64,000 nt of DNA, from IMG/VR virus record IMGVR_UViG_3300040786_000066, one strand, 5' to 3'. The DNA is from a virus. Under the pieces are notes generated by a model that did no database searches, was not told the DNA's origin, and was given only the letters and a program-made list of their open reading frames with translations. Shown here in pieces: positions 5,709 to 38,373 of the stretch. Position 1 is the first letter of the stretch, and each line of letters begins with the position of its first letter. Position numbers and translations under genes: made by a program.

Positions 5709-6093
5709 AAGCTTGTTTGACTGGGTTAGTTACTAAAGTACCAATCCCTGGTCGGCGAAGGGAACTGAGGTTAGAAAAACTGCGAAGCAGCAGGCTGAAT
5801 GCAATGTGATGAAGTACAGTAATCATGTTAGTAAGTCTCTCCCGAGTAGATTGAGTATAACGATTTACAATATTAGCCCCGGATATAGGTTGATTACCTT
5901 ACCCTGTATCAGATAGACACGTTTCATCGTCGGGCAATAACAAAAGTCCAGAGTGCACATAGGTATATGAAAATTAAGAACCTACCTGCATTAGATTTAT
6001 TAGAGAATCGTCTGGCAACAATAAGTCCTGAGTGGATTGCATGATACGTCATACAACCTCGAGCTCTTCATAAGTGGAGAGCTTTACAGGCTT
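5709..6093 (+). ncRNA. candidate large (~385 nt) structured RNA, unassigned
   Basis: No credible ORF. Closing helix AAGCTTGT(5709-16)/ACAGGCTT(6086-93). Internal stems GATATAGG/CCTGTATC, AGCTCTTCA/TGGAGAGCT and CTGC-GAA-GCAG. Confidence 0.5.
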
Positions 6094-6104
6094 ATAGAAA
6101 AGTC

Positions 6105-6226
6105 CGGAATTAATCTTGACGCTGATAGTATGTGCACATATAATTTCAGTTGAGGTACGAGAGATAATCATAAATTAAGTTGTACAGCTTGATTCAATGA
6201 AAGGGTTCGATTCCCGAATTTCCGCA
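6105..6226 (+). ncRNA. tRNA-like RNA (acceptor plus T-loop, non-canonical core)
   Basis: CGGAATT pairs with AATTTCCG (one bulge); GGG-TTCGATT-CCC T-arm; no canonical anticodon arm. Confidence 0.4.
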
Positions 6227-6593
6227 TAATATGGAGAACTTCAGAAGAGCTATCCAAGTTTAATAAACCATTTAATAACCAAACCATTATGAAAAGATTT
6301 TGTTTTATTCGTATTGGCTTTCAGTCTGTTTTCCTTTATGGGAGCTAGAGACTATGTGAAGCCTGTTTCAAGTCATGAAGCTGTATTTGTAGGAAGTACT
6401 AACTTTCCCTAAAGATCTACAACGGTACAATCAAAAGCCGAAGTTCCATAAGGAAAGACAAAAGAATTAGAATACTGCAGGCCTCCTTTATAGTTTGGAA
6501 CGAGCCTGAAGTTAGAATTAACATTGTGTATAATATCGTTGCAAGCACAGACTTAAAATCTGGATACTGACAACTATACTATATATAAAATAA

Positions 6594-6652
6594 AAAATAC
6601 CCTTGAGAGGCGAGTGCCGTTTAGGACTCAAGGGTATTTTATTAACATGGGG
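6594..6652 (+). terminator. long hairpin/terminator upstream of the tmRNA locus
   Basis: AAAATACCCTTGAG/CTCAAGGGTATTTT 14-bp inverted repeat. Confidence 0.6.
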
Positions 6653-6708
6653 AGGCAACTAAGCTTTCTAATATTACGAAGCCGTGTAATAATATGCATT
6701 ATAAAAGC

Positions 6709-6791
6709 GGGTAAGTACTCTAGAAAAGGCGTTATTGTTTGTCGCGGTATACAGTCGGCATACAAGATGGGTTCGATTCCCTACCTATCCA
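6709..6791 (+). ncRNA. tRNA-like RNA with Ala-type acceptor (G3:U70, A73)
   Basis: GGGTAAG/CCTATCC acceptor (one mismatch), TTCGATT T-loop, and a long hairpin instead of an anticodon arm. Confidence 0.45.
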
Positions 6792-6792
6792 C

Positions 6793-7062
6793 AAGATTGT
6801 TCATTGACGTATTATGAGTTTTGCAAGACGGGAGTTCGACTCTCCCAACTCCACAAATCGAAGACCGTGTATGTTGTCGATGGTGTAGCTAGCCGATATA
6901 CAAATAGCCGAACTTATGGGGTTGCCTGGTTTTGATTGCAATACACAAGTTTTACTGAGAATAGTCCCAACTATAACTCCAAAAGTTATACAACTTTTAG
7001 TGCAGCTGATTTAGAATTAGCAGCCTAGACGAAACTTGGGGAGCGTCAATCCCCTTATTTTT
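6793..7062 (+). ncRNA. ssrA: circularly permuted (two-piece) tmRNA
   Basis: Acceptor piece first (GACGGGAG-TTCGACT-CTCCC-AACTCC-A, 6827-6853), then a spacer, then the 5' piece GGGGTTGCCTGGTTTTGA at 6918 (G3:U70). P2 TTGCAA/TTGCAA. Tag frame ends ...FSAADLELAA-TAG (7028). Inter-piece pairing TTGACG(6804-09)/CGTCAA(7044-49). Confidence 0.88.
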
Positions 7063-7083
7063 AAACCCTAAATTTATCGATCG

Positions 7084-7425
7084 ATGAAAAACGAAACTCT
7101 AATTAATCCCAAGATTACGAGGACTCGTAATTCTGTGAACGTAAATTGGTTCTCTGTATGTAAAAGTAGCGTTGATAACGTTATTCAAATTACATCAAAA
7201 TCCGAGTTCTTTAACACTCCTCTTGTTTATAAAGTAACAGAGGATTTAATTATACTTAGAAAAGTCACTATACGAGATAACAAAAGAATAGTAGTACCTA
7301 AAAAAGGCCGCGATTCTGAGTTTTATCGCATGAGCATCATAACTAAATTTGAAATCGAAAACAACAGATACGATTTTGAATTTGATGAAGATGATGAGGA
7401 TGTAGTATCTGCTTATTATAAGTAG
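7084..7425 (+). CDS. hypothetical protein
   Basis: Intact 113-aa ORF with an acidic C-terminus inside the ncRNA island. Confidence 0.6.
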   Translation: MKNETLINPKITRTRNSVNVNWFSVCKSSVDNVIQITSKSEFFNTPLVYKVTEDLIILRKVTIRDNKRIVVPKKGRDSEFYRMSIITKFEIENNRYDFEFDEDDEDVVSAYYK

Positions 7426-7459
7426 CATATTTGTAAATTAATTGAGATCTTTGAATTGA

Positions 7460-8770
7460 AATAACGGCTTGAGCGAAACGTGGGCCGTGGTTCAAAGAAT
7501 ATACAACACTAGTCCTGGAATTCCTGGCAAGCCTATGAAGATAGGAACTTGGTAGAGGATAGAGGCACGTAATCCTTCATATTGCATCGGTACAAATAAA
7601 CAAAACCGAGCCGCACAACACCGTGATTCTTTTAGATAACGGAATATGATTGACTACAACCGGAGCACGGATTCAAACTAACTGTACTGTGTCGAACAGG
7701 ATGAAATCGATTGATGCTAGCCGTAAGGCAACTAACATCTTGTTGCATTTAAAAGGGACAAGAAATGATAGGGATTCTGCAGGATCCAGCTATTGAATAA
7801 GGGTAAGAATAATATCCCCTTAGAACCTCGCTGACACCAGCCAAGTCAGGAGAACAAATCGGGTGGCATCCCTCTAAGCATAAGGAGAACAACAATGCGC
7901 ATTAGCATAAGGTGTACAACAATGCAAGTACTGTCGGCCAGCCATGTCAGCTTGGACCCAAAGTTGGAGTTGATAACTTTGCCGGCAAGTACTTTAACCA
8001 TGCTGAAAAGCAATTGCAAGGAGACTATTAGGTACGTCTTCCCAGAGTAACGTGTGCCAACACCCTGGGTATCTTAGGTCAAGGATGCAATACTTTTCAT
8101 AAAGTCTATAATCTGCGATAACAGAATGAATACATCAACCGCGCAACAAGGCGAGTTTAGTTTTTAGTATGTGAGCGGTAGACACAACTACACACAACAA
8201 ACAAAGATTGCTACTTAAGCTAGTTTATGAACAGCGACTCTGACTCGGGCATCTAATGTACCGGCTAACCTTACAGAGAAAAGGTGTAATCCCTTGCCAG
8301 TATGATTTTAGGCAAATGCAAACTTCGTCAATGTTCCTTAGCGTTCGGGTATTAAGTATAAGATAGCATAAGCCTAAAAGTTGTTGGCATTAGGGCATCA
8401 AGGGATTGATGTGATGAGCTGTAACGGAACTCAGCAGGCAGGTTCGATTCCTGTTAGCCTCACTATTTTAACAACATCCAACGCTCAAAGGAATTAAGAG
8501 GGCAGGCGTTATAGTGACCCGCCGAGAATGAATGGTCACTGAATTTCTAAGTAGTAATGGTCATCTTAAGATACCTGAGTAGAGTGAGTAGTAAGAGTGG
8601 TGCCTATATGGTATTTCTGAAATGAACGTAGTAGCTCAAAAGGCAGATGGACTCAATAGAGAAGATTATTATTGAATTTGCGTGTTCGTTCAGTCCAGTT
8701 TGCATAGCAGGATCGCGCACGTTAAAACTAAGGTAGGAGCAGTCATCAAGTATGGTGATTGTCTCCCTTT
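7460..8770 (+). ncRNA. giant structured RNA, GOLLD-like, with an embedded tRNA-like element (~8393-8462)
   Basis: About 1.3 kb with no ORF of 60 aa or more on either strand. Many helices, e.g. AAGTACTGTCGGC/GCCGGCAAGTACTT, AAAGTT/AACTTT, CCCAG/CTGGG, AGTGACC/GGTCACT, TGGACT/AGTCCA. Ends in a terminator-like hairpin. The class assignment is from recall only. Confidence 0.55.
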
Positions 8771-8798
8771 TGTATACTAAGAACTAACAACAACTAAC

Positions 8799-9161
8799 AT
8801 GGAAGAGTATGTAGATTACCTGAAAGGGAAAATTCAAGAATGCGAGCTGGAAGATATGCACGTATCTGTGTCTGTTTACAAAGAAGTACTAAATACTTAT
8901 TTAAGTTTCCTTGATGCCGCCAAGCTGAAAGCATCGTTACATAATAAAGTAGGCATAGTTACAGCAGGCTCAAGACAATTTGGTAAAGCTGCCAGATTTG
9001 CAGAGCTCTATGGTATGATGAAACCTGCAGTTCACATCATGGTGGGCAGCAAAGAGATGCATGACAATATGGAAAAAGCACTTATTGATGCTGTAGAGCA
9101 TGTAAAGAATGCACCTATTCAAGGAAGATTTACAGACGCTTTTGAAAAGAACGCGGTATGA
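8799..9161 (+). CDS. hypothetical protein
   Basis: Intact 120-aa ORF preceded by a CAACAACTAAC leader. Confidence 0.65.
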   Translation: MEEYVDYLKGKIQECELEDMHVSVSVYKEVLNTYLSFLDAAKLKASLHNKVGIVTAGSRQFGKAARFAELYGMMKPAVHIMVGSKEMHDNMEKALIDAVEHVKNAPIQGRFTDAFEKNAV

Positions 9162-9859: not shown

Positions 9860-9883
9860 GGTACTAATCGACAAGCAATAACC

Positions 9884-19284: not shown

Positions 19285-19710
19285 CCATGTCAGGCCATTT
19301 ATCAACAGAAGAGCTTTATTTAAAGCCGAAATAGATGCAATAAGAAGAAAGGATTATGCTTTTCATAGAGTTTTAGAGGCAAACAAAATAAAGTTCAAAA
19401 GAACAGGGGAACCATTGTGCTAGACGGTATGGTGGTATACGAAGATCTTCAAGTTTCTTTCGGCAGTCCCAAGACGTATCAATACAATCTTGAGACACTA
19501 AAAGAAAAGTAAGCTCAAATACAGTATTAAGTATAAAAGCTAAGTTTATAGGTGCAAACAGCCTAGGTTACATAACAGGTTTGAATTACATCTTAAATGT
19601 ACTTCCATCTAGTGGTATAACTATATGCAGAAAAGATGGATCAGGTAAATGCGTTTACCAATCCCTAACAGCTTTTCTTGTAAACTGGGATAGCATAGAA
19701 AAATAACAAG

Positions 19711-19806
19711 CGGGAAACCACAAGATCAAGCTAGCCTATAAACGGGGATGCGTGGGAGGATGATAAATAAACACTGTCTGATAAGGGTTCGAATCCCTTT
19801 TCCCGT
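19711..19806 (+). ncRNA. degenerate tRNA-like RNA
   Basis: CGGGAAA/TTTCCCG acceptor and AAGGG-TTCGAAT-CCCTT T-arm; no canonical D or anticodon arm. Confidence 0.5.
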
Positions 19807-20339
19807 TATTTTAACAACTAAATATATGGCACAAGAAAAGAACGTTGCCTGCATTTGTCCTAGTATTATGATCTACAACGAGTGGGTCAGAGAAAACGCA
19901 GTAAAGGAGAGCAATATATCTGGGTCTATAATGAAGACAAAATCAGAGGACTACGCTTCCATAGACTAGTTAAGTTATTTAAATATTGGACAATAAAAGA
20001 TATAGATAGAATATTGAGGTTTATTATAATAGACCCTCAAGATGTCGAGATTCAATAGTAATCTCATATAATTTAATAAGAACAATATGAAAGCGTATCA
20101 AATAAACATCGCCCCTAGAACTGGAGTCGGTATGGGATTTGTGACTGTTGGAGAAAACGAGAACCACGCTCTTGCAGAGTTCTCAAAGTCTCTTAGGGAT
20201 TCCATCAAGATAATCAACGCCAAAATAGCGTGCGGACCTGAATGTAATATATCAATACACGAAAGCCAAAAGAGCGCAATGTAGAGATCCTTAGAACACT
20301 TAGAAAACCAGGTAGGCTTGCTTTCCAAAAAACGACTTC

Positions 20340-20545
20340 TATAGGCCAAACTCTTGGCCTAAGGTTACAGTAACAGAGATTACCCGTACAATCACAACAT
20401 CGTACGTGAAAGAAGTTTGGCTCGGAAACTAGTATCTACAAGTAGGAGGGAACAAACCTACAAACCAGAACTAGTAACCTATGAGCCAAGTGCAGGTGTC
20501 GCGGTGGATTATGTCTGATAGACTAGATCGCGACCGGCCTGCTAG
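20340..20545 (+). ncRNA. candidate structured RNA (unassigned)
   Basis: TTGGCTC/GAGCCAA enclosing ACTAG/CTAGT and GTAGG/CCTAC; GCAGG/CCTGC enclosing GTCGCGGT/ATCGCGAC. Confidence 0.45.
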
Positions 20546-20763
20546 TATTCAACTAACAACTAGCAACAATGAAAACAAAGCTAATCGACTTCATCCCTTT
20601 TACGGAATACGTACGTATGGTGGAAGGCTTATAAAAGCACAAAGATCCATAACGATAAAGGAGCAACAGATAGACCAAGCTCTTATGATTTACCATGTGG
20701 TAGTTAGTATAGTACTAATAGAAATTGTCATAGAAATGGTAAAACAACTAACAACTTAACATT

Positions 20764-22428: not shown

Positions 22429-23936
22429 AATAATTATGGAAGTAAAGCTAATTAAAGTAGAAGGCTGTGTAGTCGGCTGGTCTATGGAAGGAGAAAACCT
22501 TGAAGAAATGAAAAACTAGGGGCTATCAGAGACATCCAATTCTTTGGTTTTGAAGATACAGAAATAGTGTACGCAGGTAGAAAAGGCGGTGACTATGTAA
22601 CAGATCCTGGAGTGTTGTCTTGGAAACAAAAAAAGCACGACACTAGCTCCCCAAAAAAATAATGAAAAGCTAGAAGCTACAATAACAGTAGATAACTTAG
22701 TGTCGACCATGAAAACATCAATGCCATCAGAGAAGATCCTAAGAGAACGAATGAAATATTTCGTGCTGCAGGATTTTAGAGGGTATATTGTATACTAGGG
22801 AGGCTAGTACCAGGCAAACAACTTGTCTTTAAAAATATCACTTATGTGGAGATTGGATGGATAGGCCAGAAAAGAATAAAGACCAGAGAACAAACCTACA
22901 TGGAGCTGATGGTAGAAATGATGGAAGAATTCATCAAAGAACTCACTTAATAAATTGACTTATGGAAAAAGAAGTAAATGTTAGAACATACACATACGCT
23001 CAACTAGACTGTAAATATGATGCACTATGTTTAAAAGATAAAAATACAGTGCTTAGAGGAGCTTTAGAATACATGCAGCAGTACAACGGTAGGACTATAA
23101 AACATGCATTTTCATGGCTATGGGCTATGAGGATTGCGTAGGGAAGGAGAATACATAAAAGTAATAGACCATGGGTAACATACAAGAACTGGAAAACAGC
23201 TGGCTGAGGCAAAAGCTGAAGAAAAGAGAAAAGAGCTTCAAACCTTGACAGAAAACCTCATCTCTAAATACCAAGGAAAGCTTACGGGAGTCACAGTTTC
23301 GAAAGAAAAACAGATCAGCGTACGCTTCAGCTGTGTTTTATGAAAAGTTCTGGGTTACAGGCAATACGATAACAGTATTGAAATGGAACATATCCTTTTG
23401 CAGAGCAGGAAGAAATTACAAATTCTCAAGTGATAAGCTGTCTTTGACAGAAACAAAACTGAGGTATCCTCACAGGAGAACGGCTATAGTTTTGAGCACA
23501 ATTTAATAAGTTCAGGCGCCTATGGTAGGGACAAAGAAATGTCCGTAAACAAATTCATGCAACTTTGGGAGTACGGATATTTTGTGGTACAAGAACTAGA
23601 CAACGTATACACAAAACTGTGGGACAGCCGTGGGACTTGACTAGAATGGGCACAGCAACCGATGAACTAAAGTTAGATATAGCTATAAAAGCCACTGGTA
23701 TTGATGTTATAGATATAACAGAAGACTACAAGGTATTCAACGTACTCAAGTATTGTCAGTTACCGTTCTTTCAAGAACAGAAGTATCTGCCTAGAATATT
23801 CGCAGTAAAAATACTCGAATATCAGATATCCAAAATGAAGGAGGATATGGCACATCCATTCTCTACACGCACAGAACACACACGTGGAGAAATTAAAATT
23901 CTAGAAGATTTTATAAAACAATTTAACTCTTACATC

Positions 23937-24842
23937 ATGCAAGTAAAAACGATAAAGAAAATAATCAGTAAAAAAATGATCGACTGGTTAGAAACTATTC
24001 CCAACGAAAAGTTGAGATCTGACGTCAAGAAAAATATCCTCGTATCAGGAGGTTGTATCACATCATTGTTTCAAGGATTACCAGTTAACGACTACGACGT
24101 ATACATTCAGGACATGGATGTTCTGATCAGACTGGCTCAGCATTATTACCCAGGAACAACTACCACAGGTGTTGATAAAGTGCTTGACGGAAGAAAACGT
24201 GAGGACTATCTTAACAATATACAGAGCTCTTTTGAAATTGACGATAACGAATCTGAAGAAGCAGTTCGCTACAAAACACTTAAACTAGATCAAGTCAAAT
24301 TGAACATAAGTTCGATAGGAATGAAAAAAGAGCTGATTGAAGGTAAAAAATACCAGGTTGCTTTCTTTTCCCAAAATGCTATCTCCCTTACAGAAGATTT
24401 GCAGATTGTATTAAGATTCAGTGGTAACGTTACTCAAATTCACAAAACTTTCGATTTCGTGCATGCCACTAACTATTTCACCTTTGAGGAAGGATTAGTT
24501 ACAAACGTAGCAGCACTAGAAAGCATATTGACAAAGTCTTTGAGATACCAGGGATCCTTATATCCTCTTACCTCTGTAATACGTATGAAGAAATTCATAC
24601 AACGTGGTTGGACCGTAAACGCGGGAGAAATCCTTAAGATGTTGTTCCAAGTGTCTGAGTTAGACCTAAAAAACATAGAGGTGCTAGAAGAGCAGCTTAT
24701 AGGAGTTGACGTAGCTTATTTTTCGCTACTGATAACAGTGCTAAGAGATACTGAAGGAAAGCTTACCGCTCATCATTTATCTGAATTGATAGACAAGGTA
24801 TTCAATGAATACGAAGAGCCGGTTGACGAAGAAGTTAAATAA
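23937..24842 (+). CDS. phage nucleotidyltransferase (Pol-beta superfamily, poly(A) polymerase/CCA-enzyme-like head)
   Basis: ILVSGGCITSL...NDYDVY and FDFVHATNYF...R..KF..RGW motifs. The ORF track starts at 23565; the likely start is MQVKT. Confidence 0.75.
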   Translation: MQVKTIKKIISKKMIDWLETIPNEKLRSDVKKNILVSGGCITSLFQGLPVNDYDVYIQDMDVLIRLAQHYYPGTTTTGVDKVLDGRKREDYLNNIQSSFEIDDNESEEAVRYKTLKLDQVKLNISSIGMKKELIEGKKYQVAFFSQNAISLTEDLQIVLRFSGNVTQIHKTFDFVHATNYFTFEEGLVTNVAALESILTKSLRYQGSLYPLTSVIRMKKFIQRGWTVNAGEILKMLFQVSELDLKNIEVLEEQLIGVDVAYFSLLITVLRDTEGKLTAHHLSELIDKVFNEYEEPVDEEVK

Positions 24843-24857
24843 TTAAAGCATAAAAAA

Positions 24858-25615
24858 ATGAATTATTACTTAGACACGGAATTCATAGAAGGACAACAAT
24901 CTTTACGCCTTTTCGGAATACCTACAAAATCCCTTCCCACCATAGATCTGATATCGATAGGAATAGTGTCCCAAGATGGCAGAGAATATTACGCAGTTTC
25001 AAAGACTTTAATCTTAAAGAAGCGTGGAATAGAAATCAAAAGAGATCACGGAACTGCGTATAACTCGTATGGCGAAAAGCTTCAGGTAAAAGAATTCTGG
25101 ATACGGGAAAACGTGCTCAAACCGATATGGAGAGTTTGTTGCAAAAGAAACTTTAGATATTGTAAATACCGTGCTGAGCAATGGAGCCGCAGTGGCTGAT
25201 GTCAACATGGATTTTAACAGAAAAACTTTCGAAAAATTACTGCTCAAGCACGGAAAATCCAATCAGGAAATAGCAAAAGAAATAAATGACTTTTGTTCTG
25301 GTCCTAATGTACAGTTCTACTCTTACTTTGGAAGCTATGATTGGGTGGCTTTCTGTTGGTTATTTGGAAAGATGATCAATTTACCAAAACACTTGCCAAG
25401 ATATTGCAGAGACTTAAAACAGATTCTTGACGATAAAGCCGAAGCACTGGCAATGAGAATAGCTTACGAAAGTGGAAATCACACGGTATGGACCAATGAA
25501 AGATGCTTAGCAGACTTAAAAGTCATAGAGATTACCCCAAAAAACAAATGATCATATTGCTATAAGCGATGCAAAATGGAATAAAGAACTACATAAATTC
25601 CTTGAGACTAACTAA
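24858..25615 (+). CDS. DEDDh 3'-5' exoribonuclease, Rv2179c-like (indel-split)
   Basis: YYLDTEFIE, LISIGIVS.DGREYYAV, YFGSYDWVAFCWLFG.M..LP and H.AISDAKW motifs. Confidence 0.8.
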
Positions 25616-26173
25616 TTAATCAAGTGAGGTTTTCACAGGCAAAAGCGACAAACTGTAAAGCACGCTTTTACTCACTTTTAATTTAAATATTATTTATATG
25701 TCAAAAGCACTAAAAGAGAAAACACCTCTATTTTTGGACACACACATGTGTTCACAGGGTATCAGGGATCTGTACCCTATCTAAAGCCTAAGAAAGGCGC
25801 TGTAGATAATACAGGTAGACATCATGTAGGTCTATACGGAACTTGTGATGTATGCGACAAAGAATTTTATTAGCACATGTTCACATAGATGATTTGACTG
25901 GTAAATTGTTTAACTAAATAAAACCAAATACTATGGCAGATAAAAGAATACATGCTACAATTGCATACACTCCGGTGATAATGACAATATGAACTCTGCT
26001 CACATCCACTGCAAATTGTTTTGGAGAGCTGGACATAGTTCGCGTAGCGAGCAACCAAAAGGAAATGAAAACGCAATCAAAACGGGTGGTATGACTTTCC
26101 GTATAACTTCGACCCAGTATGGATGGAAGAAGATTGCAAGTATCACACAATTAAACCCTCTAAAATTTAAAAC

Positions 26174-26562
26174 ATGGAAATTACAAGAAAAGACCCTTTC
26201 ACGGGTGACATCAATACGCATAATTTGAACATCACAGGAGAAGAAATGACCCTCTGGGAAAAAGAAATACCTATATTCAAGATGCTTTTCCTAATCTTAC
26301 TGGAGACGAAAGAGAGTTTGTTAAAACAGGAATCAATATAGGAACGTTTGATGCTTTGTTTGAAGATGAAGACGAGGATGAAGATGAGGATGAAGATCTT
26401 TCTGACGACGAGTACCTTAGAATAAAATCTGGAGTAGGTAGGGATATGTACGATGAAGATGATGATGAAAATGATGATGAAGATGATGAAGACGATTGTC
26501 ATGAGTTTGACGATATGATGAGGTTGGCTAAAATACTGGCTGCAGAGTTATGTTGTGCATGA
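26174..26562 (+). CDS. protein with D/E-rich low-complexity C-terminus (indel-split)
   Basis: EDEDEDEDEDEDL...DEDDDENDDEDDEDD tract. Confidence 0.55.
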
Positions 26563-28859: not shown

Positions 28860-29589
28860 ATGAAAAACATACACGTGTTACAGACTGCCCAACCGAGCAG
28901 GCTGTTTTATTTCAATAATGAATTGAGGCTGGAACACAACACTGTTGAAAGAAAGACAAACCAGAACATCTACATCACTTCTGATGAAAAAATTAAAAAG
29001 GAGATTGTTTCATAGAAAACGGAAAGTATATTTTCAACGGAAGTTCCTCACCAGTATCAGATACTTTTATACCAAGAAGGAATCAAAAATCATCCTAACA
29101 ACAGACCAAAACTTAATCAAAGAGAGTGCAAGCCATTAATGATGAGTTTCTGGAGTGGTTCGTAAAGAATCCAAGTTGTGAGGAGGTGGAGGTACTTCAT
29201 CAAGATGTTTATTCTATGGGTAAATGGGATAGAAGAAGTAACATAATCATTCCAAAGAAACGCCTAAACAAAACCTAGAAAAGGATATGTTTGAATTAGA
29301 ACAGGAACTTGACATACCATCCCATTTAAGATTTCACAATTCTAAGCAAGAAACGCTTGAGGAAGCCGCACAATCCCACTTGTCAAAAGTAGCTGACGGT
29401 AAAAGAACAACCGGATATGCTGATGAAGACTTCATTGCGGGAGCTATATGGCAACAGCAAAGAAGCTACACAGAAGAAGAAATGAAGCTGTTTGCAAGAA
29501 GCTACTTCAGAGAAATTAAATTAGACACAACTAACACATTGTGGAGCGACCTTGCTGACAGGTGTTTTGAGGAATTTAAAAAAAAGTAA
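28860..29589 (+). CDS. hypothetical protein of a family I recall from Bacteroidota phages (indel-split)
   Basis: IILTTDQ.LI...VQAI.DEFLEWFVKNPSCEEVEV and KQETLEEAA motifs. Confidence 0.5.
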
Positions 29590-30854
29590 ATTGAAAACAA
29601 CCATACACTACCTTGTAGTCGGGGATCTGTTGGGAAATAATGCCAATTCGTATCATCCGACATATTTTACTACTATTGAAGAAGCTTTTGCTTGCTGGGA
29701 AAAGAGTATAAGTACAGAGATAAAAAAGATGGGTACGATGCTAAGTGGCATAAAGTTCCATTTAGAGTGCAACAAGTGATCACCAATAACCTTTGGGATA
29801 TAAATGGTGAGACATTAGTAACAGTAGTTAAGAAAGATAAATTCTCCTTAATCAGTTGGTTTGAACAATTCAAAAAAAATAAATATGGAAGCAGATAAAT
29901 TAGGAGGCTATACTGTAAAGGAATGGCGTCAGATGATAGAAGACAAGGTGGTGGCCGATATATCAGACGAAGTTCTTGAGTTCGTCAAGCCAAATATATT
30001 CGAAAGAAAAATGCTCAAAACAAAGAGGCCCGTAAAGAATCGGTTACTGAGGAACTATACTACGTAAGAAACGAAGGCTTTCTGGGCAACGCTTTATTGT
30101 GGTGGACAAAAGGCTGTAACGGCTATACCTGCGATATAAATGATGCCCACAAGTTTACGAGAGAACAAGCAGAAAAACTTGTAAAGACCTCAAGATTCAG
30201 CTTACCTTTGTACGTACATAGACGGACTAGAGAAAGCCAAAAAAGTGATAATAGATTCTCAATACGTAGATAAGTCAGAAAGATTATGGAACTAAAGTCA
30301 ATGATCGACTTTGTTTTCTATATAGGAAACTTAGACATAGCTCGTAAATCATCTCATAAAGAAATGGTTACCCTTATTTTTAATTATGCTCTGCTGCTTA
30401 AAGACAAACTATCCCTATGGATGTTTGTTCCCTGTGATAAAGACGGTAAAATAATGGAAGAACCGCAATCTATAAAAAACACATTTATTCAAAAAAGCGA
30501 TAATGGAGACTTCTTTAACCAAAAAGGTTTCTAGAATATATTGTAAATTATGACCAAGCAAAAGTAAATGCCTGTTTAAAGATTTCGATTTATGGAGAAG
30601 TGGTAACGGCTTTCTAGTAAGAAATGCATTTATAAAATACACGACGTAGAATTTGAAAATGTAACTATAGAATATCTATCTGTTCAAGGAGGTATCTATA
30701 GTACTACTCCAGCTTTATGAACAAAGTTGGCTTATAGAAGCTATAAACAAATTCATTATGGAAAAATTACAAGGTTATTTAACTGAAGTTCTTAATAAAC
30801 TAAAATAAAGTATCCCTGTTAACAAAAGATAAGGCTAAACATTAATCCTTTGAA

Positions 30855-31180
30855 GTGCCCATGCAAAATACTTATCGTTCGAACGAAGAAGATACAAGCA
30901 CCATAATTAAGATATCGGGCGAAATCCGGACGTGTAGCTTTCCTTGAGAAAGAAAGTAGAACAGAAGTAAAAGGTGTGCCAAGATAATTGAGCTGCACGC
31001 ACTACGCGAATGAGCAGCTATCCGTAAGGACGCTGAACTAGTAATAGTTTTCTCAGCAAGAATTAAGAAACTACGGGGAATCACTTGTGATGGCCGTGAG
31101 TGTAAAATACGTGACCCTACTCTTACGGCATTAAAGTAGATGTAAATCGAAAAGTACTGGTTGGTACGTGAGTAAGAAAG
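30855..31180 (+). ncRNA. candidate structured RNA (unassigned)
   Basis: AGCTGC/GCAGCT, TCC-GTAA-GGA, TAGTTT/AAACTA and GCCGTGAG/CTTACGGC helices; no + strand ORF. Confidence 0.4.
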
Positions 31181-31183
31181 AGG

Positions 31184-31489
31184 GTGCTAAACAATCTAAA
31201 ACTAAGCAACAATGAAAAAATATTATTATTAACAGTCTGTATTCAATTACTAGCATCTTGCGGTTATGCATGTATAGACACCAGTAAACTCGTGGTGATT
31301 ACCTCAATAGAATCTGCAGGGGCTAATAAGTGCGACTATTATGGCTACGGTAATTCCGGTATGACTTATAATATTTGGACTAGCGAATTGTTCAAAATGA
31401 GAGACATATGTGGTAAATTCCAAATAGGCGATACTATTACATTTACAAAAGTAAAAGCATACAAAAACACTTCTGTGAATACCAATTAG
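31184..31489 (+). CDS. putative lipoprotein/membrane protein
   Basis: Hydrophobic N-terminus with LLASC. Confidence 0.45.
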   Translation: MLNNLKLSNNEKILLLTVCIQLLASCGYACIDTSKLVVITSIESAGANKCDYYGYGNSGMTYNIWTSELFKMRDICGKFQIGDTITFTKVKAYKNTSVNTN

Positions 31490-31713
31490 AGGTGGTAAAT
31501 ATCCGCTAGTACAAACAAATTCACATAAGTAACCGGTTAAACTGAGGCCCCTTGAGGGATAGTGTAAGACTGTAGACAAGCCTCTGTGAAAGCAAGCTTC
31601 TTTAGTTATCGGATTAAACTTTTGATACGGGTCATGCAGCCCCGATACAAGACTGGAAGAAACCAGAGCTATTAAAAATTTATTTGATAAGTTCCCTCAC
31701 ATGAGGGCTTTGG

Positions 31714-31893
31714 GAGGTGATGTAACTGGCAGGCATGCCTGCGGTAATGCAGCAGGTGGTAAGGGCAATAATGAAAGTCATCAGGAATCAGGCCTGATTT
31801 TTAAGGTGATGGACAAGAATGACCCAAAAGTGAAAGCGGCAATTGTACATTACCCGTGAAAGCTCCGTGCAGGTTCGAGTCCTGCTCACCCCA
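31714..31893 (+). ncRNA. expanded tRNA-like RNA (180 nt)
   Basis: GAGGTGA/TCACCCC acceptor, GCAGG-TTCGAGT-CCTGC T-arm, A73, and internal helix GGTAATG/CATTACC. Confidence 0.7.
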
Positions 31894-32151
31894 CAAACTA
31901 CACATTGAAAAACAAACACAGTTATGATACATTAAACAGCAAGAGAAGTAGGGGCACTGAAAATTTTGTGATATAGGCATCATAATGCACTATCAAGATA
32001 ACCGGAAGCATAGATGAGGAAGGTTAAGTGCCAGGTTTGTTGAGTAAGATAAGCTCTTGTTACGTTGCTCCGAGTAGGACAGTACGTACTTGAAGGACTA
32101 AGTGAACCTTGTAGAGTAATATCCCTATCTTGAAGGATGGGTGGTTTATAA

Positions 32152-32351
32152 GGCCGGATGGCGTAGAGGCATACGCTAAGGTTATAGGCCTAGAATGGAT
32201 TATCAAAAGCCTATCTGTAAGACAAGTCAGGTAAATAAGCGGCAAGATAGGATAGTCCAGCAAGTTCTGTGAAAATAATAACTATTATCCCTGTAAAGGT
32301 GCTGACTAACACAGAATATAATTCATGCAGGTTCGAATCCTGCTCCGGCCA
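32152..32351 (+). tRNA. tRNA-like gene with a ~130-nt structured variable-region domain (identity uncertain)
   Basis: GGCCGGA/TCCGGCC acceptor, class II-like D arm GCG-TAGAGGCATA-CGC, weak anticodon arm (loop TTATAGG), T-arm GCAGG-TTCGAAT-CCTGC and A73. Confidence 0.75.
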
Positions 32352-32383
32352 CAAACAGTATTTTAATTAAACAACTAACAACC

Positions 32384-33271
32384 ATGCTTGAGATAAAAAA
32401 TCAAAAGACCAAAACCACGGCATGTAGAGAAAACGGCAGAAGCGCAGACTTTACAAGCGGTAATTTCATCTTAGGCTGCTCCCACAAAAAAGGAGATACT
32501 TATGATAATCCCTGCTCTTATTGCTATGTAGCAAGATTCGGCAGACAAAAATTGTACGTCAATACTAACACAGATGAGTTGTTGGCAGAGTGCGACAAAG
32601 CCATACAAGACCTGCCTTCCCTAGAGTACCTAACCAAGTAGATGAGAAATACTACTACGTTGACATCTCTTGTGATACAGATATTAATCTGCATTGGAAC
32701 GACTATGATTGATTTATGTGTTTGATTATTTCAAGAAGCATCCCAAGCTAGCAGCTACTTTTGCTACAAAATGGGTGAATACAAAACTGCTGGACTATGT
32801 TCCTGAAAACAAAATCAGAGTAAGAATGAGCTTGATGCCTGAGAAAATGAGAGCTATACTTGAAAACGGTACCAGTCCTATAATAAAAGAGTTCAGTTCC
32901 TGGAGAAGCTTTTCCAAGCAGGATACTCTACGCACATCAATTTCAGTCCAATTATTTACCACGACAAAAAACTGAGCGGGTACAAAGAACTCTTCAACAT
33001 CATTAACAACGAAGTATCAGAGGAGTTTAAAAACAAGCCGGTCTCGAATGTATTTTCCTTACTCACAATGCTAATCTTCACAAAATAAATTTGGAAAAGG
33101 CCTTTAAAGCAAGAAGAAATACTTTGGACACTAGAGAACCAAGAACAGAAAATCAGTCAGTATGGAGGCTCAAACCTGCGGTACAATCAACGTGTAAAGC
33201 CAGCTTTAATTAGAGCTTTTACAAAGTCGGTAAACCAAGACCTCAACATACCTATTAGGTATATATTTTAA
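32384..33271 (+). CDS. spore photoproduct lyase-like radical SAM protein (indel-split)
   Basis: GC...CSYCY, FATKWVN, IRVRMSLMP and E.GTSPI motifs. Confidence 0.75.
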
Positions 33272-33453
33272 AGAAGATCCAAGCAGCAAGGATGTGCAAA
33301 TAAAACTGCAGATATGGCCCTCTACATGTGGGCTCGTATAAAAGGACGCAGGCTTTTGGCTAGCAGGAATAGACTGCTTTTTTAGTTTAAATAAATATTC
33401 AATTCAAAGTAAAGCTATATGGCTTGTAAGGTCATTTCAATAAGAAAATGTAA

Positions 33454-33461
33454 TATCTTTG
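33454..33461 (+). promoter_or_regulatory. Bacteroidota -7 element TATCTTTG
   Basis: Exact TAnnTTTG after a terminator and just upstream of a structured ~100-nt region; no well-spaced -33 element. Confidence 0.4.
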
Positions 33462-36040
33462 AAAAGAATTGTTAAAAATAAATACACGTGTTGCAAAAGT
33501 CGAATGCAAGGCAAACTTAGAAGGAGTAATTACCCTCGACAGCAGCAGGTGCCTTGTGGATCCCTGGACAAGCGCAACACGTTTATTTTATAAATTACCC
33601 TGAATTTATTTACTAACCTATACATCTAACCAAAATGAAAAAATTATGCGCGTCTTTTGCTGTACTTATCCTAGTTAGCTCTTTAACTTATTCTGTAGTT
33701 TACCTATTAAGCCAGAATCCAAATGCTTTAGAGTGGGAAGCAAATATCCAAAACATATCGATTGCTATTGTTGTCAACATTACCCTTTTGTATCCTTATG
33801 GATGTTTGAACAAAATGGTTTGCAATCACTGAAAGAATTAAAGCAAAGCCAATAAAAAAAGATTTTAATGTTTTATTGACAAGATTCGAGGAGAAGAATA
33901 CATGAACGGTAATATAATAAAAACGCAGCTACAAAATTAACAATGGAAAAAAGCTATAATTTCAAAATGCAAATGGGGTGGTGTTCAGTTCTTAGCTGGG
34001 CAGCTACTCTATCTCTAGCTTTAAAGCCCCAGAGAAAATAGATGATTGGATGGTAATTCCATTCGGGGCAATAGTATTTACGATTATCCACTTCAAGATG
34101 AGTATGCTTATCTCAGAATACAAAGATAAATCAAAAAACTAGTCATGGTAGTTACAGGACCACGAACACTAGCAGATTACTTAGCCGTGCAGAAAACGAT
34201 AACAGGTATTCTAGACAGTCGTTACTGCACTTGCCAGATGAAAAAGACTTGAACGTAAAGCTCAACAGAGTTAAAGAAAAATAAAAAACCTCGGCAATGG
34301 AGATATATAAAAAAGTGGAATATATCCACAAAGATAAAGCGCAAAAAATATATAAGGATATAGCAGAAAAGCAGTTTATTATGGCTTTTTCAAGGAAATG
34401 CCCTTAGATAAATTAAAAAAGCTGATAAGCTTCAAAGAAACAGATCCAGACAAAGAAGAAGAGTGGAAAAACAAAGATCAGGTAGAGATGCTGTGCCATC
34501 TCAGAGACACAAACAGTCTGCTGCTCTGTCATTTAGAAATAGGCCCTAAGCCTGTTGATGACACCTTCACTCTAAATTTCGCAGAGTGGTTGCGAAAAGA
34601 GTCTTACGATGTTGGAGACAAGTGGTATTACCAGCAAGACAATGAATTATACACCTCGGCTGGAATGCTTTCCATTTACAGGGCAGTATTATCTGTTGAT
34701 AAAACAAAAATTAGCCATGGATCTTAATAGATTCTCTGTAAATTTTATTTGTATGTTTACACAAATAATGTGGTTTTACGTAATGGGGCTTACTACTCCG
34801 TTTCAAATAAGAAGCTATGTGACTACCTGTGGAGCAAGAATTGAACTAATGCGTTAATAAATATGAGAACAGAAAACACACACAGAAAGTAATTTTGTTG
34901 GTAATTTGGGATTACTAACAGCCGTATTACTTGCATTAAGCTGGTTTCACTTTGCCTGGCAATACCTGGGCATAACAACCGGTATCCCAAAAAACATAAC
35001 TAACAATTTTAGCTCAAGTTGGGAAGCTTATAGTTATTTTTCTCCAGAGACTACGGTACAGGAGGATTAATTTATATCACGCTATTTGGTTACTATTGGT
35101 GGCTTACTAGTAAAGCTTTCTTGTACATACTGAAAAAGCAAAAAAGAGACAGTAAAAAAAGTAAATATTATGGACACAATTAGAATAAAATGTAACGTAG
35201 CAAAATTACTAGTTACGGAAACGGTGGAGGTACAAAAGTAACGTTAATGCCTGTTACAGGTAATAGCGAAGAAAACAAACAGTTTTGGAACAATGTACCT
35301 ACTGGAAAGATAGTTCTGCACGTAGATGCTGAACCGTGTGGTTTTGAAAAGGAGAGTACTATGTAGACTTTACTAAGCTATAATGTACACTTTAATTATT
35401 GAGAAGAAAGACATACTGGCCCCAGGTACCGTTATATTAAGCGGTAATTTCAAATTGGTCAAGAAAATAGAAGATTTAAACGAGTTTTGGGCAGTGTTAA
35501 AAACACAAAATCGTTTTATGCAAGGCATAGAATGTACCCCACCTCCTTCTTTTCTTGGACATTAAGAACAATAGACGCCTGGATAAAGGCCGGTTACTTC
35601 TGGACTGTTGCACCTTGCGGGAAACCAAAGCGCGAATTTCCAGTTAAATAAATAGCCCTTAACTTACCGAGATGATAAAAAAACTAAATTAACGAAGTTT
35701 TATGTATTCTGTGGAACTTGGTAAGTAAAGTAAGCTTGCTGCTGTTTTCGGTTGAAGCCTGAGAATCAGCGAGGACGATGGACAGGCAACCGTCAAAACT
35801 CGGAGTCCTCATTACGGTAGCGAAACGGCTCTGGGCACGAAATCCAGGGCCGTTTTATATTTAATACAATTGTAAAATAATTCAGGTCATGATGCAAAAC
35901 ATGTACATTGCTTATATGAGAGGTTTTGAAAACAAACCTAAGCCTAAATATATCAAAGGAAGCCTTGTCGAAAAAGAGTACGATAAAGGCAAAAAAGACA
36001 GAGTAAATAAATTACCTAACAGGTATTTAAAGTCTTAAAT

Positions 36041-36179
36041 GGAGGCATAGCTGTTAAGATTGCATTCTAACACAGTAAGTGGGTCGCCGATGAGCTGATA
36101 TTACTGCACAACATGCGCGCTAAAGATGTAAGTGATCAGTTATGTACGCGGCAAGGAGGTTCGATTCCTCCTGTCTCTA
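36041..36179 (+). ncRNA. expanded tRNA-like RNA (139 nt)
   Basis: GGAGGCA/TGTCTCT acceptor, GGAGG-TTCGATT-CCTCC T-arm, A73, and two long hairpins replacing the D and anticodon arms. Confidence 0.72.
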
Positions 36180-38371: not shown

Positions 38372-38373
38372 TT

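What the first reader, a model, noticed from the sequence alone, without database searches (positions are those of the whole stretch)
5709..36179. System-level: a phage RNA toolkit of tRNA-framed RNAs, a two-piece tmRNA and giant ncRNAs, with its own RNA 3'-end enzymes
Seen: I found no canonical tRNA. At least six RNAs keep a tRNA acceptor stem and TTCGA T-arm while replacing or expanding the interior (6105, 6709, 19711, 31714, 32152, 36041), and a further T-arm element sits at ~8393-8462. Five elements (6709, tmRNA, 31714, 32152, 36041) end in discriminator A followed by CAA, with no encoded CCA. The window also has a permuted tmRNA, two large structured RNAs, about six unassigned structured segments, and an adjacent nucleotidyltransferase plus DEDDh exoribonuclease. 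Established: the acceptor/T-arm half is what RNase P, RNase Z, CCA enzymes, EF-Tu and synthetases read. Inference: the phage uses the tRNA elbow as a processing and stability frame for cargo RNA domains, or as decoys for host anticodon nucleases and uncharged-tRNA sensors.
Basis: partly seen in the sequence, partly recalled or inferred. Interest (0 to 1): 0.9.

Follow-up and report, generated by a model that had tools for sequence, protein, structure and literature searches.

The report
Phage RNA islands in error-ridden contig
Most of this 30-kb "RNA toolkit" is ordinary phage genes that look non-coding only because the deposited sequence has lost about one base in every 100-140, but it also holds a real two-piece tmRNA, several tRNA-like RNAs with large inserts, and two long gene-free stretches that behave like structured RNAs.

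Summary
The window is part of a 166-kb phage contig from an ice metagenome, and the sequence is riddled with single-base deletions. Contigs built independently from a ~450x run match it with almost no substitutions but about 190 indels in 20 kb, including the thymidylate synthase frameshift points. About 81% of the flagged span is protein-coding in shifting frames. A clean relative is syntenic and gene-dense over 19-30.5 kb.

Real RNA features remain:
- **T-loops:** seven exact GGTTCGANTCC motifs, all on the + strand, against about 1.4 expected.
- **tmRNA:** a circularly permuted tmRNA at 6796-7029 scores 40.1 bits here and 49.1 bits (cut-off 47) in a clean relative. Phage two-piece tmRNAs are already known (PMC9004378).
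- **tRNA-framed RNAs:** no standard tool calls a canonical tRNA. F (32152-32352) is strongly supported. B, D and G are moderately supported. A, C and E have acceptor pairing no better than chance.
- **Long ORF-free stretches:** 5225-6240 and the start of 7426-8790 show structure-preserving substitutions. No Rfam family matches them.
- **Enzymes:** the nucleotidyltransferase has a CCA-adding/poly(A)-polymerase-like fold and falls in the Gad2 family. The neighbouring DEDDh exonuclease is real, but the pairing is not conserved.

The scan has noted similar tRNA-framed RNAs in other phages.

The parts
5225..6240 (+). About 1-kb ORF-free stretch, a candidate long structured RNA that ends in tRNA-like element A
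   Evidence: The coding HMM calls it non-coding. The clean relative L074 has no gene across the equivalent stretch. Substitutions between the window and L074 preserve pairs predicted from a single sequence on the + strand: kept fraction 0.53-0.65 against 0.33-0.36 for permuted substitutions (p<=0.0015), and 5-6 compensatory pairs against about 0.7 expected. The effect is weaker on the - strand. No Rfam match.
6105..6227 (+). Element A: T-loop motif with a 3-bp T-stem and a 6/7 closing stem. A weak tRNA-like end.
   Evidence: An internal hairpin shows compensatory change (GCTGA/TCAGT in the window, GCTAA/TTAGC in L074), and the 3' ~60 nt are nearly identical in L074, with one difference. The acceptor pairing is no better than chance.
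6709..6793 (+). Element B: near-threshold class II-like tRNA-like RNA with G3-U70, A73, a UGU 'anticodon' loop and a long variable arm. It directly abuts the tmRNA.
   Evidence: ARAGORN calls it only at 90% stringency, and gives the same cloverleaf in L074. The T-stem has 3-4 bp and the acceptor stem has 1-2 A-C mismatches. The distant phage G001 has a canonical tRNA-Met in the same position, just upstream of its permuted tmRNA.
6796..7062 (+). Circularly permuted (two-piece) tmRNA gene with a terminator hairpin. The tag reading frame ends at 7029.
   Evidence: RF04321 scores 40.1 bits (E 7e-5) in the window and 49.1 bits (cut-off 47) in the clean relative L074. The acceptor stem GGGGUUG/CAACUCC has G3-U70 and A73. 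The tag ends ...AADLELAA-stop, with TAG in the window and TAA in L074. The window lacks one C at the junction of the T-stem and acceptor stem.
7426..8790 (+). About 1.3-kb ORF-free stretch, a candidate long RNA with tRNA-like element C inside it
   Evidence: In the four-copy consensus no frame is open for more than 74 aa, with 20-40 stops per frame. The first 250 nt show a hairpin with several compensatory pairs and a long-range A-U to C-G change relative to L074. GOLLD, ROOL and all other Rfam families are negative even in a 1.5-kb sensitive search.
8386..8462 (+). Element C: good T-arm, poor acceptor pairing
   Evidence: tRNA-Sec model 19.9 bits, E 0.66. ARAGORN calls it only at 90% stringency. 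The best acceptor pairing has 2 mismatches.
19711..19809 (+). Element D: tRNA-like frame with a ~65-nt interior. Discriminator T, no CAA.
   Evidence: The deep run inserts a T after 19797, which gives T-stem AAGGG/CCCTT and acceptor CGGGAAA/TTTCCCG at 7/7. It is absent at the syntenic position in relative L037.
23919..24842 (+). Minimal nucleotidyltransferase of the Gad2 family (PF26128) with a CCA-adding/poly(A)-polymerase-like fold
   Evidence: Precomputed PF26128 on all 120 listed homologues. phrog_4400. Invariant GG...DxD motif. AlphaFold2 model pLDDT 83.5. VIA Z 10.0 to bacterial poly(A) polymerase 3aql, 9-9.8 to CCA/A-adding enzymes, 8.3-8.7 to TENT5, and <=4.2 to other families.
24858..25551 (+). 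DEDDh 3'-5' exoribonuclease (RNase AS/T-like), split by a frameshift error
   Evidence: Fragments 24858-25196 and 25171-25548 match NF033638 at model positions 1-50 and 62-128 of 155 (E 1e-9 and 1.5e-12), and also match phrog_2259.
31714..31893 (+). Element E: perfect T-arm, 6/7 acceptor pairing, ~150-nt interior, A-CAA end
   Evidence: Five copies of the phage agree on the interior. The locus varies between strains: relative L079 and a co-occurring strain in run X1 carry a different tRNA-like start here.
32152..32352 (+). Element F: tRNA frame (7/7 acceptor, D-arm, T-arm) with a ~125-130-nt structured insert and an A-CAA end
   Evidence: It is the only ARAGORN call at default stringency with introns allowed: tRNA-Val(AAC) with a 124-nt insert and a weak anticodon stem. 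Fold z = -4.6. All copies agree.
36041..36179 (+). Element G: 139-nt stretched four-way cloverleaf with a perfect T-arm, 7/7 acceptor pairing (two G-U) and an A-CAA end
   Evidence: Identical in copies L075 and L076. The fold z-score is not significant.
38368..39550 (+). Thymidylate synthase broken by at least five frameshifts. It lies outside the finding and serves as proof of the sequence errors.
   Evidence: tblastn against the Larrie enzyme changes frame five times while the active-site motif is conserved. The deep run inserts bases after 38555, 38618, 38700, 39134, 39343 and 39556, and lacks one at 39540.

Best explanation
The flagged span is an ordinary gene region of a large (166-kb contig) phage from an ice metagenome. 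The deposited sequence carries roughly one single-base deletion per 100-140 bases, so genes appear as strings of short ORFs and were mistaken for non-coding RNA.

Two true RNA islands are embedded in it, at about 5.2-8.8 kb and 30.8-36.2 kb. The first holds a working-type two-piece tmRNA. It is transcribed as one precursor behind a tRNA-like element (B) and ends in a terminator. Two ORF-free stretches of about 1 and 1.3 kb flank it and evolve like structured RNAs. The second island holds tRNA 'top-half' RNAs (E, F, G) in which an acceptor stem and T-arm enclose 100-150 nt of extra hairpins.

Inferred mechanism (not shown): the tRNA-like modules are handles for the host's tRNA-processing enzymes. 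RNase P and RNase Z cut at them, which releases and defines the ends of the tmRNA pieces and of the cargo RNAs. After the encoded CAA trailer is removed, a CCA end is added. The phage's CCA/PAP-like nucleotidyltransferase and its DEDDh exonuclease may or may not act on these ends.
For: SEQUENCE ERRORS. Thymidylate synthase has at least 5 frameshifts with conserved residues. Contigs from the ~450x run match the window with 0-2 substitutions but 5-19 gaps per 1.2-2 kb piece, including the frameshift sites. Homopolymers of 5 or more bases are depleted relative to Larrie. Other JGI copies of the same phage differ mainly by gaps.

CODING CONTENT. The HMM% of the + strand non-coding, against 77% for the - strand and 98-99% for shuffles. 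Frame switches occur every 220 bp, against every 566 bp in the clean Larrie genome. L037 is syntenic and gene-dense over 19-30.5 kb.

tmRNA.. A distant phage, G001, has a permuted tmRNA at 63.7 bits directly behind a tRNA-Met.

tRNA-LIKE ELEMENTS. T-loop enrichment, frame F, and the shared A-CAA ends.

LONG RNAs..
Against: No expression data exist; no RNA run holds this DNA. The covariation rests on one diverged relative (L074), and the permutation test ignores clustering of substitutions. Folding z-scores are unremarkable. Acceptor pairing for A, B, C and E is within chance. D is absent from relative L037, and E is replaced by a different element in another strain, so some elements are dispensable. 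Corrected sequence for E, F and G was not obtainable, so structural details may shift. The processing-handle mechanism is inference by analogy.
Confidence: 0.6

Rival explanations
1. A tRNA graveyard. The T-arm elements are decaying or insertion-disrupted tRNA genes with no function of their own, and the long ORF-free stretches are degraded remnants or regulatory spacers.
For: A and B have 3-4-bp T-stems and mismatched acceptor stems. Acceptor pairing for A, B, C and E is within chance. E is strain-variable, and D is missing in L037. Related phages carry ordinary tRNA arrays.
Against: F and G have perfect T-stems and fully paired acceptor stems. Five elements share the A-CAA ending. The 3' ~60 nt of A are nearly identical (one difference) in a relative that is 6.5% diverged elsewhere, and the flanks show compensatory changes. 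All elements lie on the transcribed strand.
Confidence: 0.17
2. Intron-bearing functional tRNAs. F and similar elements are real decoding tRNAs whose anticodon loop is interrupted by an intervening sequence that is removed after transcription.
For: With introns allowed, ARAGORN at default stringency calls exactly one gene in 64 kb: tRNA-Val(AAC) at 32152-32352 with a 124-nt insert.
Against: The proposed anticodon stem has a mismatch and a G-U pair, and anticodon AAC is unusual. From my own knowledge, 124 nt is too short for a group I intron (the smallest known are about 200 nt), and bacteria lack the archaeal/eukaryal splicing endonuclease. No intron family matches in Rfam. G and E have no plausible anticodon arm.
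Confidence: 0.08
3. Decoys. The tRNA-like frames mimic tRNA tops to soak up host tRNA-targeting defences or sensors, or tRNA-binding proteins. They have no anticodon loop that could be cleaved.
For: The frames keep the elbow but not the anticodon arm. The neighbourhood includes a family named for counter-defence, Gad2.
Against: Anticodon nucleases recognise the anticodon loop, which is the part that is missing. There is no conserved linkage with any defence-related gene.
Confidence: 0.1
4. Pure artefact. All the RNA features, including the tmRNA, are by-products of the error-ridden assembly.
For: The sequence has about 1% indels, and the tmRNA is below threshold in the window.
Against: The clean relative L074 keeps the tmRNA above threshold, keeps elements A and B, and keeps the ORF-free stretch. 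Five to six independent copies agree on E, F and G. T-loop enrichment cannot arise from deletions.
Confidence: 0.03

Closest known systems
Phage-encoded two-piece (circularly permuted) tmRNA, e.g. OM43 phage Melnitz and other marine phages (PMC9004378); Rfam RF04321 (PMC11915505)
   Same: The gene order is the same: the T-arm and 3' acceptor strand come first, followed by the 5' acceptor strand and the tag frame. It has G3-U70 and A73, a tag ending in ...LAA-stop, and an aquatic or cold environmental phage as source. It scores above the gathering score in the clean relative.
   Different: It has no encoded CCA (A-CAA). The coding piece is short, with no modelled pseudoknots. It is preceded by an alanine-identity tRNA-like element rather than a riboswitch or a canonical tRNA. 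The phage's protein relatives include Tenacibaculum phage Larrie (Tenacibaculum is a Bacteroidota host); the paper names Alphaproteobacteria, some Gammaproteobacteria and Cyanobacteria as the two-piece lineages, and says other bacteria have one-piece tmRNA.
GOLLD and ROOL large phage/prophage RNAs (Rfam RF01998, RF03087; bioRxiv 10.1101/2024.12.08.627333; PMC5737381)
   Same: They are large ORF-free RNAs in phages, located beside tRNA-type genes. GOLLD sometimes carries a tRNA in its linker, as 7426-8790 carries element C.
   Different: Neither covariance model matches, even at E<=10 in a 1.5-kb search. No multimer-forming motifs could be assessed. The covariation evidence here comes from one relative only.
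CDS-less, tRNA-like-domain-only tmRNA relatives (mycobacteriophage DS6A; 'no CDS' forms in PMC11915505)
   Same: They have an acceptor stem and T-arm without a normal anticodon arm, they are phage-encoded, and they lack a tag frame (one search finds no AA-stop frames in E, F or G).
   Different: E, F and G lack the G3-U70 alanine determinant and carry much larger inserts. Only B has G3-U70.
tRNA-like processing handles such as MALAT1-mascRNA, and the mitochondrial tRNA punctuation model (from my own knowledge)
   Same: A tRNA-like fold sits at the end of a long non-coding RNA, or between RNAs, and recruits RNase P, RNase Z and the CCA-adding enzyme.
   Different: Those systems are eukaryotic or organellar. 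Nothing of the kind has been shown for these phage RNAs.
Class II CCA-adding enzymes / bacterial poly(A) polymerase, and the Gad2 anti-Gabija family
   Same: The head and neck fold is shared (Z 8-10) along with the GG...DxD catalytic signature. Family PF26128 is assigned to all homologues.
   Different: The protein is only about 300 aa and has no body or tail tRNA-binding domains. The substrate is unknown. Gad2 itself is about 400 aa and its mechanism is unknown.

Membership tests
Permuted tmRNA (Rfam RF04321) | Covariance-model score at or above the gathering score (47 bits) | tested here: met
   The window as deposited scores 40.1 bits, below the cut-off, because one C is missing. The clean orthologue at L074:3101-3336 scores 49.1 bits.
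Permuted tmRNA (Rfam RF04321) | Permuted order: the T-arm and 3' acceptor strand lie upstream of the 5' acceptor strand and the tag frame | tested here: met
   Alignments: T-arm near 6833, GGGGTTG at 6918, tag stop at 7027-7029.
Permuted tmRNA (Rfam RF04321) | Alanine identity (G3-U70, A73) | tested here: met
   GGGGUUG pairs with CAACUCC, followed by A.
Permuted tmRNA (Rfam RF04321) | Tag reading frame ending in hydrophobic residues plus a stop codon | tested here: met
   ...AADLELAA-stop. The stop codon is TAG in the window and TAA in L074, and the codons before it are unchanged. The resume codon was not determined.
Permuted tmRNA (Rfam RF04321) | Mature 3' CCA end, processing into two pieces, charging, and an SmpB partner | not testable with these tools
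   CCA is not encoded (A-CAA). No RNA runs hold this DNA.
Canonical tRNA (RF00005 / ARAGORN) | A cloverleaf with a 5-bp anticodon stem and 7-nt loop, scoring above the tools' thresholds | tested here: not met
   There are no calls in the window or in its copies. Single-base insertion rescue gives only marginal calls for C and D. B, C and D appear only at 90% stringency.
GOLLD / ROOL | A match to the family covariance model | tested here: not met
   No hit at E<=10 in sensitive searches of 7350-8850 and 30700-36300, or in L074.
GOLLD / ROOL | A phage location next to tRNA-type genes, with a large ORF-free structured RNA | tested here: inconclusive
   The location and the absence of ORFs are met. 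Structure is supported by only one diverged relative, and z-scores are not distinctive.
CDS-less tRNA-like-domain tmRNA relatives (DS6A type) | G3-U70 alanine determinant in the acceptor stem | tested here: not met
   The 3:70 pair is G:C in E, C:G in F and A:U in G. Only B has G:U.
Class II CCA-adding enzyme | Head and neck domain fold with catalytic carboxylates | tested here: met
   VIA Z 8-10 over model residues ~5-260. G44, G45, D58 and D60 are invariant in 34 sequences.
Class II CCA-adding enzyme | Body and tail domains that bind the tRNA elbow | tested here: not met
   The protein is 307 aa. The alignments cover only residues ~5-230 of targets that are 390-420 aa long.
Gad2 (PF26128) | A match to the Pfam family model | tested here: inconclusive
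   Precomputed PF26128 is attached to all 120 listed homologues, including those 98%, 87% and 79% identical. The local Pfam copy returned no family for the window's protein. Anti-Gabija activity is not testable here.
DEDDh exoribonuclease (RNase AS/T type) | A family-model match that covers the DEDD motifs | tested here: inconclusive
   Two fragments cover model positions 1-128 of 155 at E 1e-9 and 1.5e-12. Their bit scores (39 and 48) are below the equivalog cut-off of 200. phrog_2259 also matches. The motif residues were not inspected.

The most novel reading that the evidence does not exclude
The phage encodes a family of tRNA top-half 'framed' RNAs and roughly 1-kb structured RNAs. Their ends are made by tRNA-processing enzymes. 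Their unusual A-CAA termini are then rebuilt by the phage's own minimal CCA/poly(A)-polymerase-like nucleotidyltransferase, working with its DEDDh exonuclease. Together these would form a self-contained viral system for RNA 3'-end maturation or repair. It would also assign an RNA substrate to the Gad2 family.
Probability: 0.1. Interest if true: 0.8.

Novelty: new variant of a known kind. Interest (0 to 1): 0.45.

Why it matters
The report matters in three ways.

First, it shows that an apparently spectacular 30-kb 'RNA toolkit' is mostly a sequencing artefact. Any annotation of this contig, and of its sister JGI contigs, needs polishing first.

Second, it adds a two-piece tmRNA to a large cold-environment phage whose protein relatives point to Bacteroidota hosts. 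That group is not among the lineages reported to use two-piece tmRNA.

Third, it leaves a set of RNAs that no database family explains: tRNA frames with large inserts and two long ORF-free RNAs. They resemble elements this scan has noted in phages of other phyla. If these are processed, stable RNAs, they would extend the idea that phages use tRNA shapes as general-purpose RNA handles. The CCA/PAP-like fold of the Gad2-family enzyme would then have a candidate substrate.

Tried and rejected
- **Alternative genetic codes.** Recoding TGA, TAG or TAA does not restore long frames.
- **Nucleotide similarity to cultured phages.** No hits for the tmRNA region, E/F or 7430-8790.
- **Exact-pattern scans of IMG/VR.** Four conserved RNA segments gave no hits.
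- **Metagenome scan with a tmRNA T-arm/acceptor pattern.** It returned 31 loci, none related to this phage.
- **G001 as a close relative.** Rejected, because it shares little beyond the nucleotidyltransferase.
- **Rescue of canonical tRNAs by single-base insertion.** Only marginal calls appeared, for C and D.
- **Exact look-up of the ORF next to the tmRNA.** Not on record.
- **The last contig look-up (P0127).** It gave only another error-laden copy.
- **Folding z-scores as evidence for giant RNAs.** They did not discriminate; even the true tmRNA has z = -1.3.
- **Tag-like AA-stop frames in E, F, G and the long stretches.** None found.
- **PDB sequence search with the nucleotidyltransferase.** Only noise.
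- **attP or integration-site fragments as an explanation for the T-arms.** Rejected, because both acceptor strands are present in F, G and D, and there are seven copies on one strand.
- **Corrected sequence of E, F and G.** The read-laying run lists only 12 of about 190 indels and is capped at one call, so the corrected sequence could not be obtained.

Full report
**What the standard tools say.** ARAGORN finds no tRNA or tmRNA in the 64-kb window, and Rfam finds nothing at gathering thresholds. A permissive Rfam search of 5000-37000 gives one meaningful hit: the permuted tmRNA model RF04321 at 6796-7028, at 40.1 bits against a cut-off of 47 (E 7e-5). It gives no hit to the tRNA model, even at E<=10. 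The T-loop word GGTTCGANTCC occurs seven times exactly, always on the + strand. About 1.4 matches are expected even with one mismatch allowed, and none of 100 shuffles reached seven.

**The sequence is damaged.** Under table 11 only 13 ORFs in the window exceed 150 aa, and no stop-codon reassignment repairs this.
- The proteins are typical phage replication and nucleotide-metabolism enzymes. The nearest cultured relative is Tenacibaculum phage Larrie, a Cbastvirus.
- The thymidylate synthase gene (38368-39550) matches the Larrie enzyme along its full length, including the active-site motif, but the match changes frame at least five times.
- Homopolymers of five or more bases are depleted relative to Larrie.
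- The decisive evidence comes from two public runs of one ice-metagenome sample that hold this DNA. The contigs of the deep run (~450x) match 19701-39700 with 0-2 substitutions per piece but 5-19 gaps per 1.2-2 kb. That is about 190 indels in 20 kb, nearly all extra bases relative to the window. They include bases after 38555, 38618, 38700, 39134 and 39343, which are the thymidylate synthase frameshift points.
- Other JGI contigs of the same phage (L038, L070-L073, L075-L078, L080) differ from the window mainly by gaps.
- The window's own contig is 166,282 bp long.

**How much of the span is coding.** I trained a frame-aware codon HMM on the window's own long ORFs. It labels 12% of the + strand as non-coding, and 19% of the finding's span. 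The controls give 77% for the reverse strand and 98-99% for shuffles. Frame changes occur every ~220 bp, against every ~566 bp (gene boundaries) in the clean Larrie genome. A clean 28-kb relative, L037, whose nucleotidyltransferase is 79% identical, is syntenic with window 19-30.5 kb and is densely packed with genes. The 'unassigned structured segments', and much of the impression of giant non-coding RNAs, are therefore broken genes.

**What remains non-coding.** The HMM's non-coding islands include 5221-6291, 6568-7122, 7414-8709, 22942-23436, 30805-31182, 31486-31641, 31846-32313, 33163-34002 and 35560-35871. The claimed RNA elements fall in or beside several of them.

**The tmRNA is real.** L074 is a clean, diverged relative, 93.5% identical over 5864-7678 with 99 substitutions and only 21 gaps.
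- It carries the orthologous locus and restores bases that the window lacks in homopolymers. The T-stem becomes GGGAG/CUCCC, followed by the acceptor strand CAACUCC, and the terminator hairpin becomes GGGGG/CCCCC.
- In L074 the RF04321 score is 49.1 bits, above the cut-off.
- The acceptor stem GGGGUUG/CAACUCC has the G3-U70 pair and A73 that specify alanine.
- The tag frame ends ...AADLELAA-stop. The stop codon differs (TAG against TAA) while the codons before it are unchanged.
- The 3' end reads A-CAA, not A-CCA.
- A distant complete phage that shares the nucleotidyltransferase (G001, 75.7 kb) has a permuted tmRNA at 63.7 bits. ARAGORN also calls it. It sits directly behind canonical tRNA-Phe and tRNA-Met genes, and G001 carries about 20 ordinary tRNAs as well.
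- Phage two-piece tmRNAs are already documented. In one survey 53 of 133 unique phage tmRNAs were two-piece, and 50 of those came from marine or aquatic phages (PMC9004378). RF04321 itself comes from a database that lists 79 unique bacteriophage tmRNA sequences (PMC11915505).
- This element is therefore a new member of a known kind.

**The tRNA-like elements, one by one**.
- **F (32152-32352)** is the strongest. It has a 7/7 Watson-Crick acceptor stem, a D-arm with GG in the loop and a perfect T-arm. It is the only ARAGORN call in the window at default stringency once introns are allowed (tRNA-Val AAC with a 124-nt insert), and its fold z-score is -4.6. The proposed anticodon stem is weak, so I read F as a tRNA frame around a ~125-130-nt structured insert, not as an intron-bearing tRNA.
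- **G (36041-36179)** folds as a stretched four-way cloverleaf with a perfect T-arm and a fully paired acceptor stem (two G-U pairs).
- **D (19711-19809)** becomes a 7/7 acceptor plus a 5-bp T-stem once the T that the deep run inserts after 19797 is restored. It has discriminator T, and it is absent at the syntenic site in L037.
- **B (6709-6793)** is a near-threshold class II-like cloverleaf with G3-U70, A73, a UGU loop and a long variable arm. L074 keeps the same fold. B abuts the tmRNA, in the position where G001 has its tRNA-Met.
- **A, C and E** have good or partial T-arms, but their acceptor pairing has 1-2 mismatches.
- **Control.** A 7-mer pairing with at most one mismatch is found 40-200 nt upstream of 70% of random sites, and a perfect one at 12%. 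'At least six acceptor stems' is therefore an overstatement.
- **Copies and strains.** All same-phage copies agree on the interiors of E, F and G, so the long inserts are not assembly noise. The E locus varies between strains. Relative L079 and a second strain in the deep run carry a different tRNA-like start at the same point.
- **Repair attempts.** Single-base insertion scans do not turn any element into a convincing canonical tRNA.
- **Other checks.** E, F and G lack G3-U70 and contain no tag-like frame.

**The long ORF-free stretches.** L074 has no gene across the equivalent of 5240-6290. I predicted structure from one sequence only and then asked whether the 81 substitutions between the window and L074 preserve the predicted pairs. 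On the + strand the kept fraction is 0.53-0.65, against 0.33-0.36 for permuted substitutions (p<=0.0015), with 5-6 compensatory pairs against about 0.7 expected. On the - strand the kept fraction is 0.37-0.44. This fits a + strand structured RNA of about 1 kb that ends in element A. The test rests on one relative and ignores clustering of substitutions.

The stretch 7426-8790 has no open frame above 74 aa in a four-copy consensus. Its first 250 nt, the only part that L074 covers, show a hairpin with several compensatory pairs and a long-range A-U to C-G change. No Rfam family matches either stretch, GOLLD and ROOL included, even in small sensitive searches. Folding z-scores do not differ from coding controls. 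GOLLD and ROOL are phage RNAs found near tRNA islands, and GOLLD sometimes carries a tRNA in its linker (bioRxiv 10.1101/2024.12.08.627333). The resemblance is one of setting, not of membership.

**The enzymes.**
- The nucleotidyltransferase (23919-24842) belongs to a large phage family. Precomputed Pfam labels it PF26128 Gad2 in all 120 listed homologues. The local Pfam copy returned no family for it. It also matches phrog_4400, a family of unknown function.
- Gad2 is an experimentally shown anti-Gabija protein with a predicted nucleotidyltransferase fold (bioRxiv 10.1101/2023.05.01.538930).
- A confident AlphaFold2 model (pLDDT 83.5) is closest to bacterial poly(A) polymerase (Z 10.0), CCA/A-adding enzymes (Z 8-9.8) and TENT5 (Z 8.3-8.7). 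There is a clear drop to Z<=4.2 for CD-NTases, MenT/TglT, ANT and Cid1. The GG...DxD signature is invariant.
- The matches cover only the head and neck domains, and the protein has no body or tail. The fold therefore supports an RNA 3'-end type of enzyme, but the substrate is unknown.
- The two ORF fragments downstream (24858-25196 and 25171-25548) match consecutive parts of the DEDDh exoribonuclease RNase AS model and also match phrog_2259. They are one gene split by a frameshift.
- None of the 25 loci that carry the nucleotidyltransferase has this exonuclease within 10 kb. Three of them (L012, L013, L021) have a canonical tRNA immediately downstream of the nucleotidyltransferase.

**Mechanism.** These points are shown:
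- The tmRNA gene has the features needed for a two-piece tmRNA.
- The tRNA-like modules lie on the transcribed strand, at the ends of ORF-free stretches or just before gene starts.
- Five of them share an A-CAA ending.

These points are inferred, by analogy with permuted tmRNA maturation and with tRNA-like processing handles elsewhere:
- Host RNase P and RNase Z cut at these modules. This releases the tmRNA acceptor piece behind B and defines the ends of the cargo RNAs.
- CCA is then added.

Whether the phage nucleotidyltransferase and exonuclease take part is open.

**Earlier notes of this scan.** Notes on other phages describe similar tRNA top-half RNAs with variable inserts. They are unverified leads, but they suggest the phenomenon recurs.

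**Verdict.** The system-level 'toolkit' is largely an artefact of a deletion-ridden sequence. The tmRNA is a new member of a known kind. The framed tRNA-like RNAs and the two long ORF-free RNAs are real leads of unknown function, and they need a polished genome, more relatives and RNA data.

Noticed in passing
window 1-64000 (whole window): The deposited sequence has about one single-base deletion per 100-140 bp relative to deep-coverage contigs of the same sample. Sister JGI contigs from samples 3300039023 and 3300039218 have even more. Any gene call on these records is unreliable until they are polished.
   Followed up: yes
window 31184-31486 (protein P0129): The window's own contig is 166,282 bp long, so this is a large phage. 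The 'no canonical tRNA' statement covers only 64 kb of it.
   Followed up: no
window 6290-6415: A small ORF (about 41 aa) with a signal-peptide-like N-terminus (MKKILFLFVLAFSLFSF...) lies between element A and the terminator that precedes B. It is conserved in L074.
   Followed up: partly
window 31706-31760; L079:2336-2510: This junction varies between strains. A second strain in the deep run, and the clean relative L079, replace the start of element E with a different tRNA-like sequence that has a D-arm-like GCGC...ACGC segment and its own insert.
   Followed up: partly
L074:2055-2160 versus window ~5863: L074 carries an extra ~105-nt block (alignment A1, columns 662-766) inside the 1-kb ORF-free stretch, which suggests a modular, variable region in that RNA.
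   Followed up: no
window 7462-7490: All long-read copies disagree with each other on the 5' arm of one hairpin. The 3' arm (TGGGCCGT) predicts ACGGCCCA for the 5' arm. This is a local error hot-spot at a strong hairpin, and L074 has a fully compensated version (ACGGTTAG/CTAACCGT).
   Followed up: partly
window 8462-8475, 19810-19822, 32360-32383, 8780-8798: A recurring A-rich leader (TATTTTAA...CAAC / TAACAAC) follows elements C, D and F and precedes start codons. It is probably the phage's translation-initiation or promoter context.
   Followed up: no
L020 (IMGVR_UViG_3300028549_003126): This related contig has only 3% of its length in stop-free frames of at least 100 aa on either strand. 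It is either another badly error-ridden assembly or a recoded phage.
   Followed up: no
L012/L013:11001-11075, L021:10988-11063: In three relatives a canonical tRNA (Leu-UAA or Lys-UUU) lies within ~100 nt downstream of the Gad2-family nucleotidyltransferase gene.
   Followed up: partly
L035:6664-6749 (G001): G001 has an unusually long (86-nt) tRNA-Phe(GAA) call upstream of its tRNA-Met and permuted tmRNA.
   Followed up: no
window 20764-22428: The broken gene here corresponds to a single 583-aa gene in L037 (6952-8703).
   Followed up: partly
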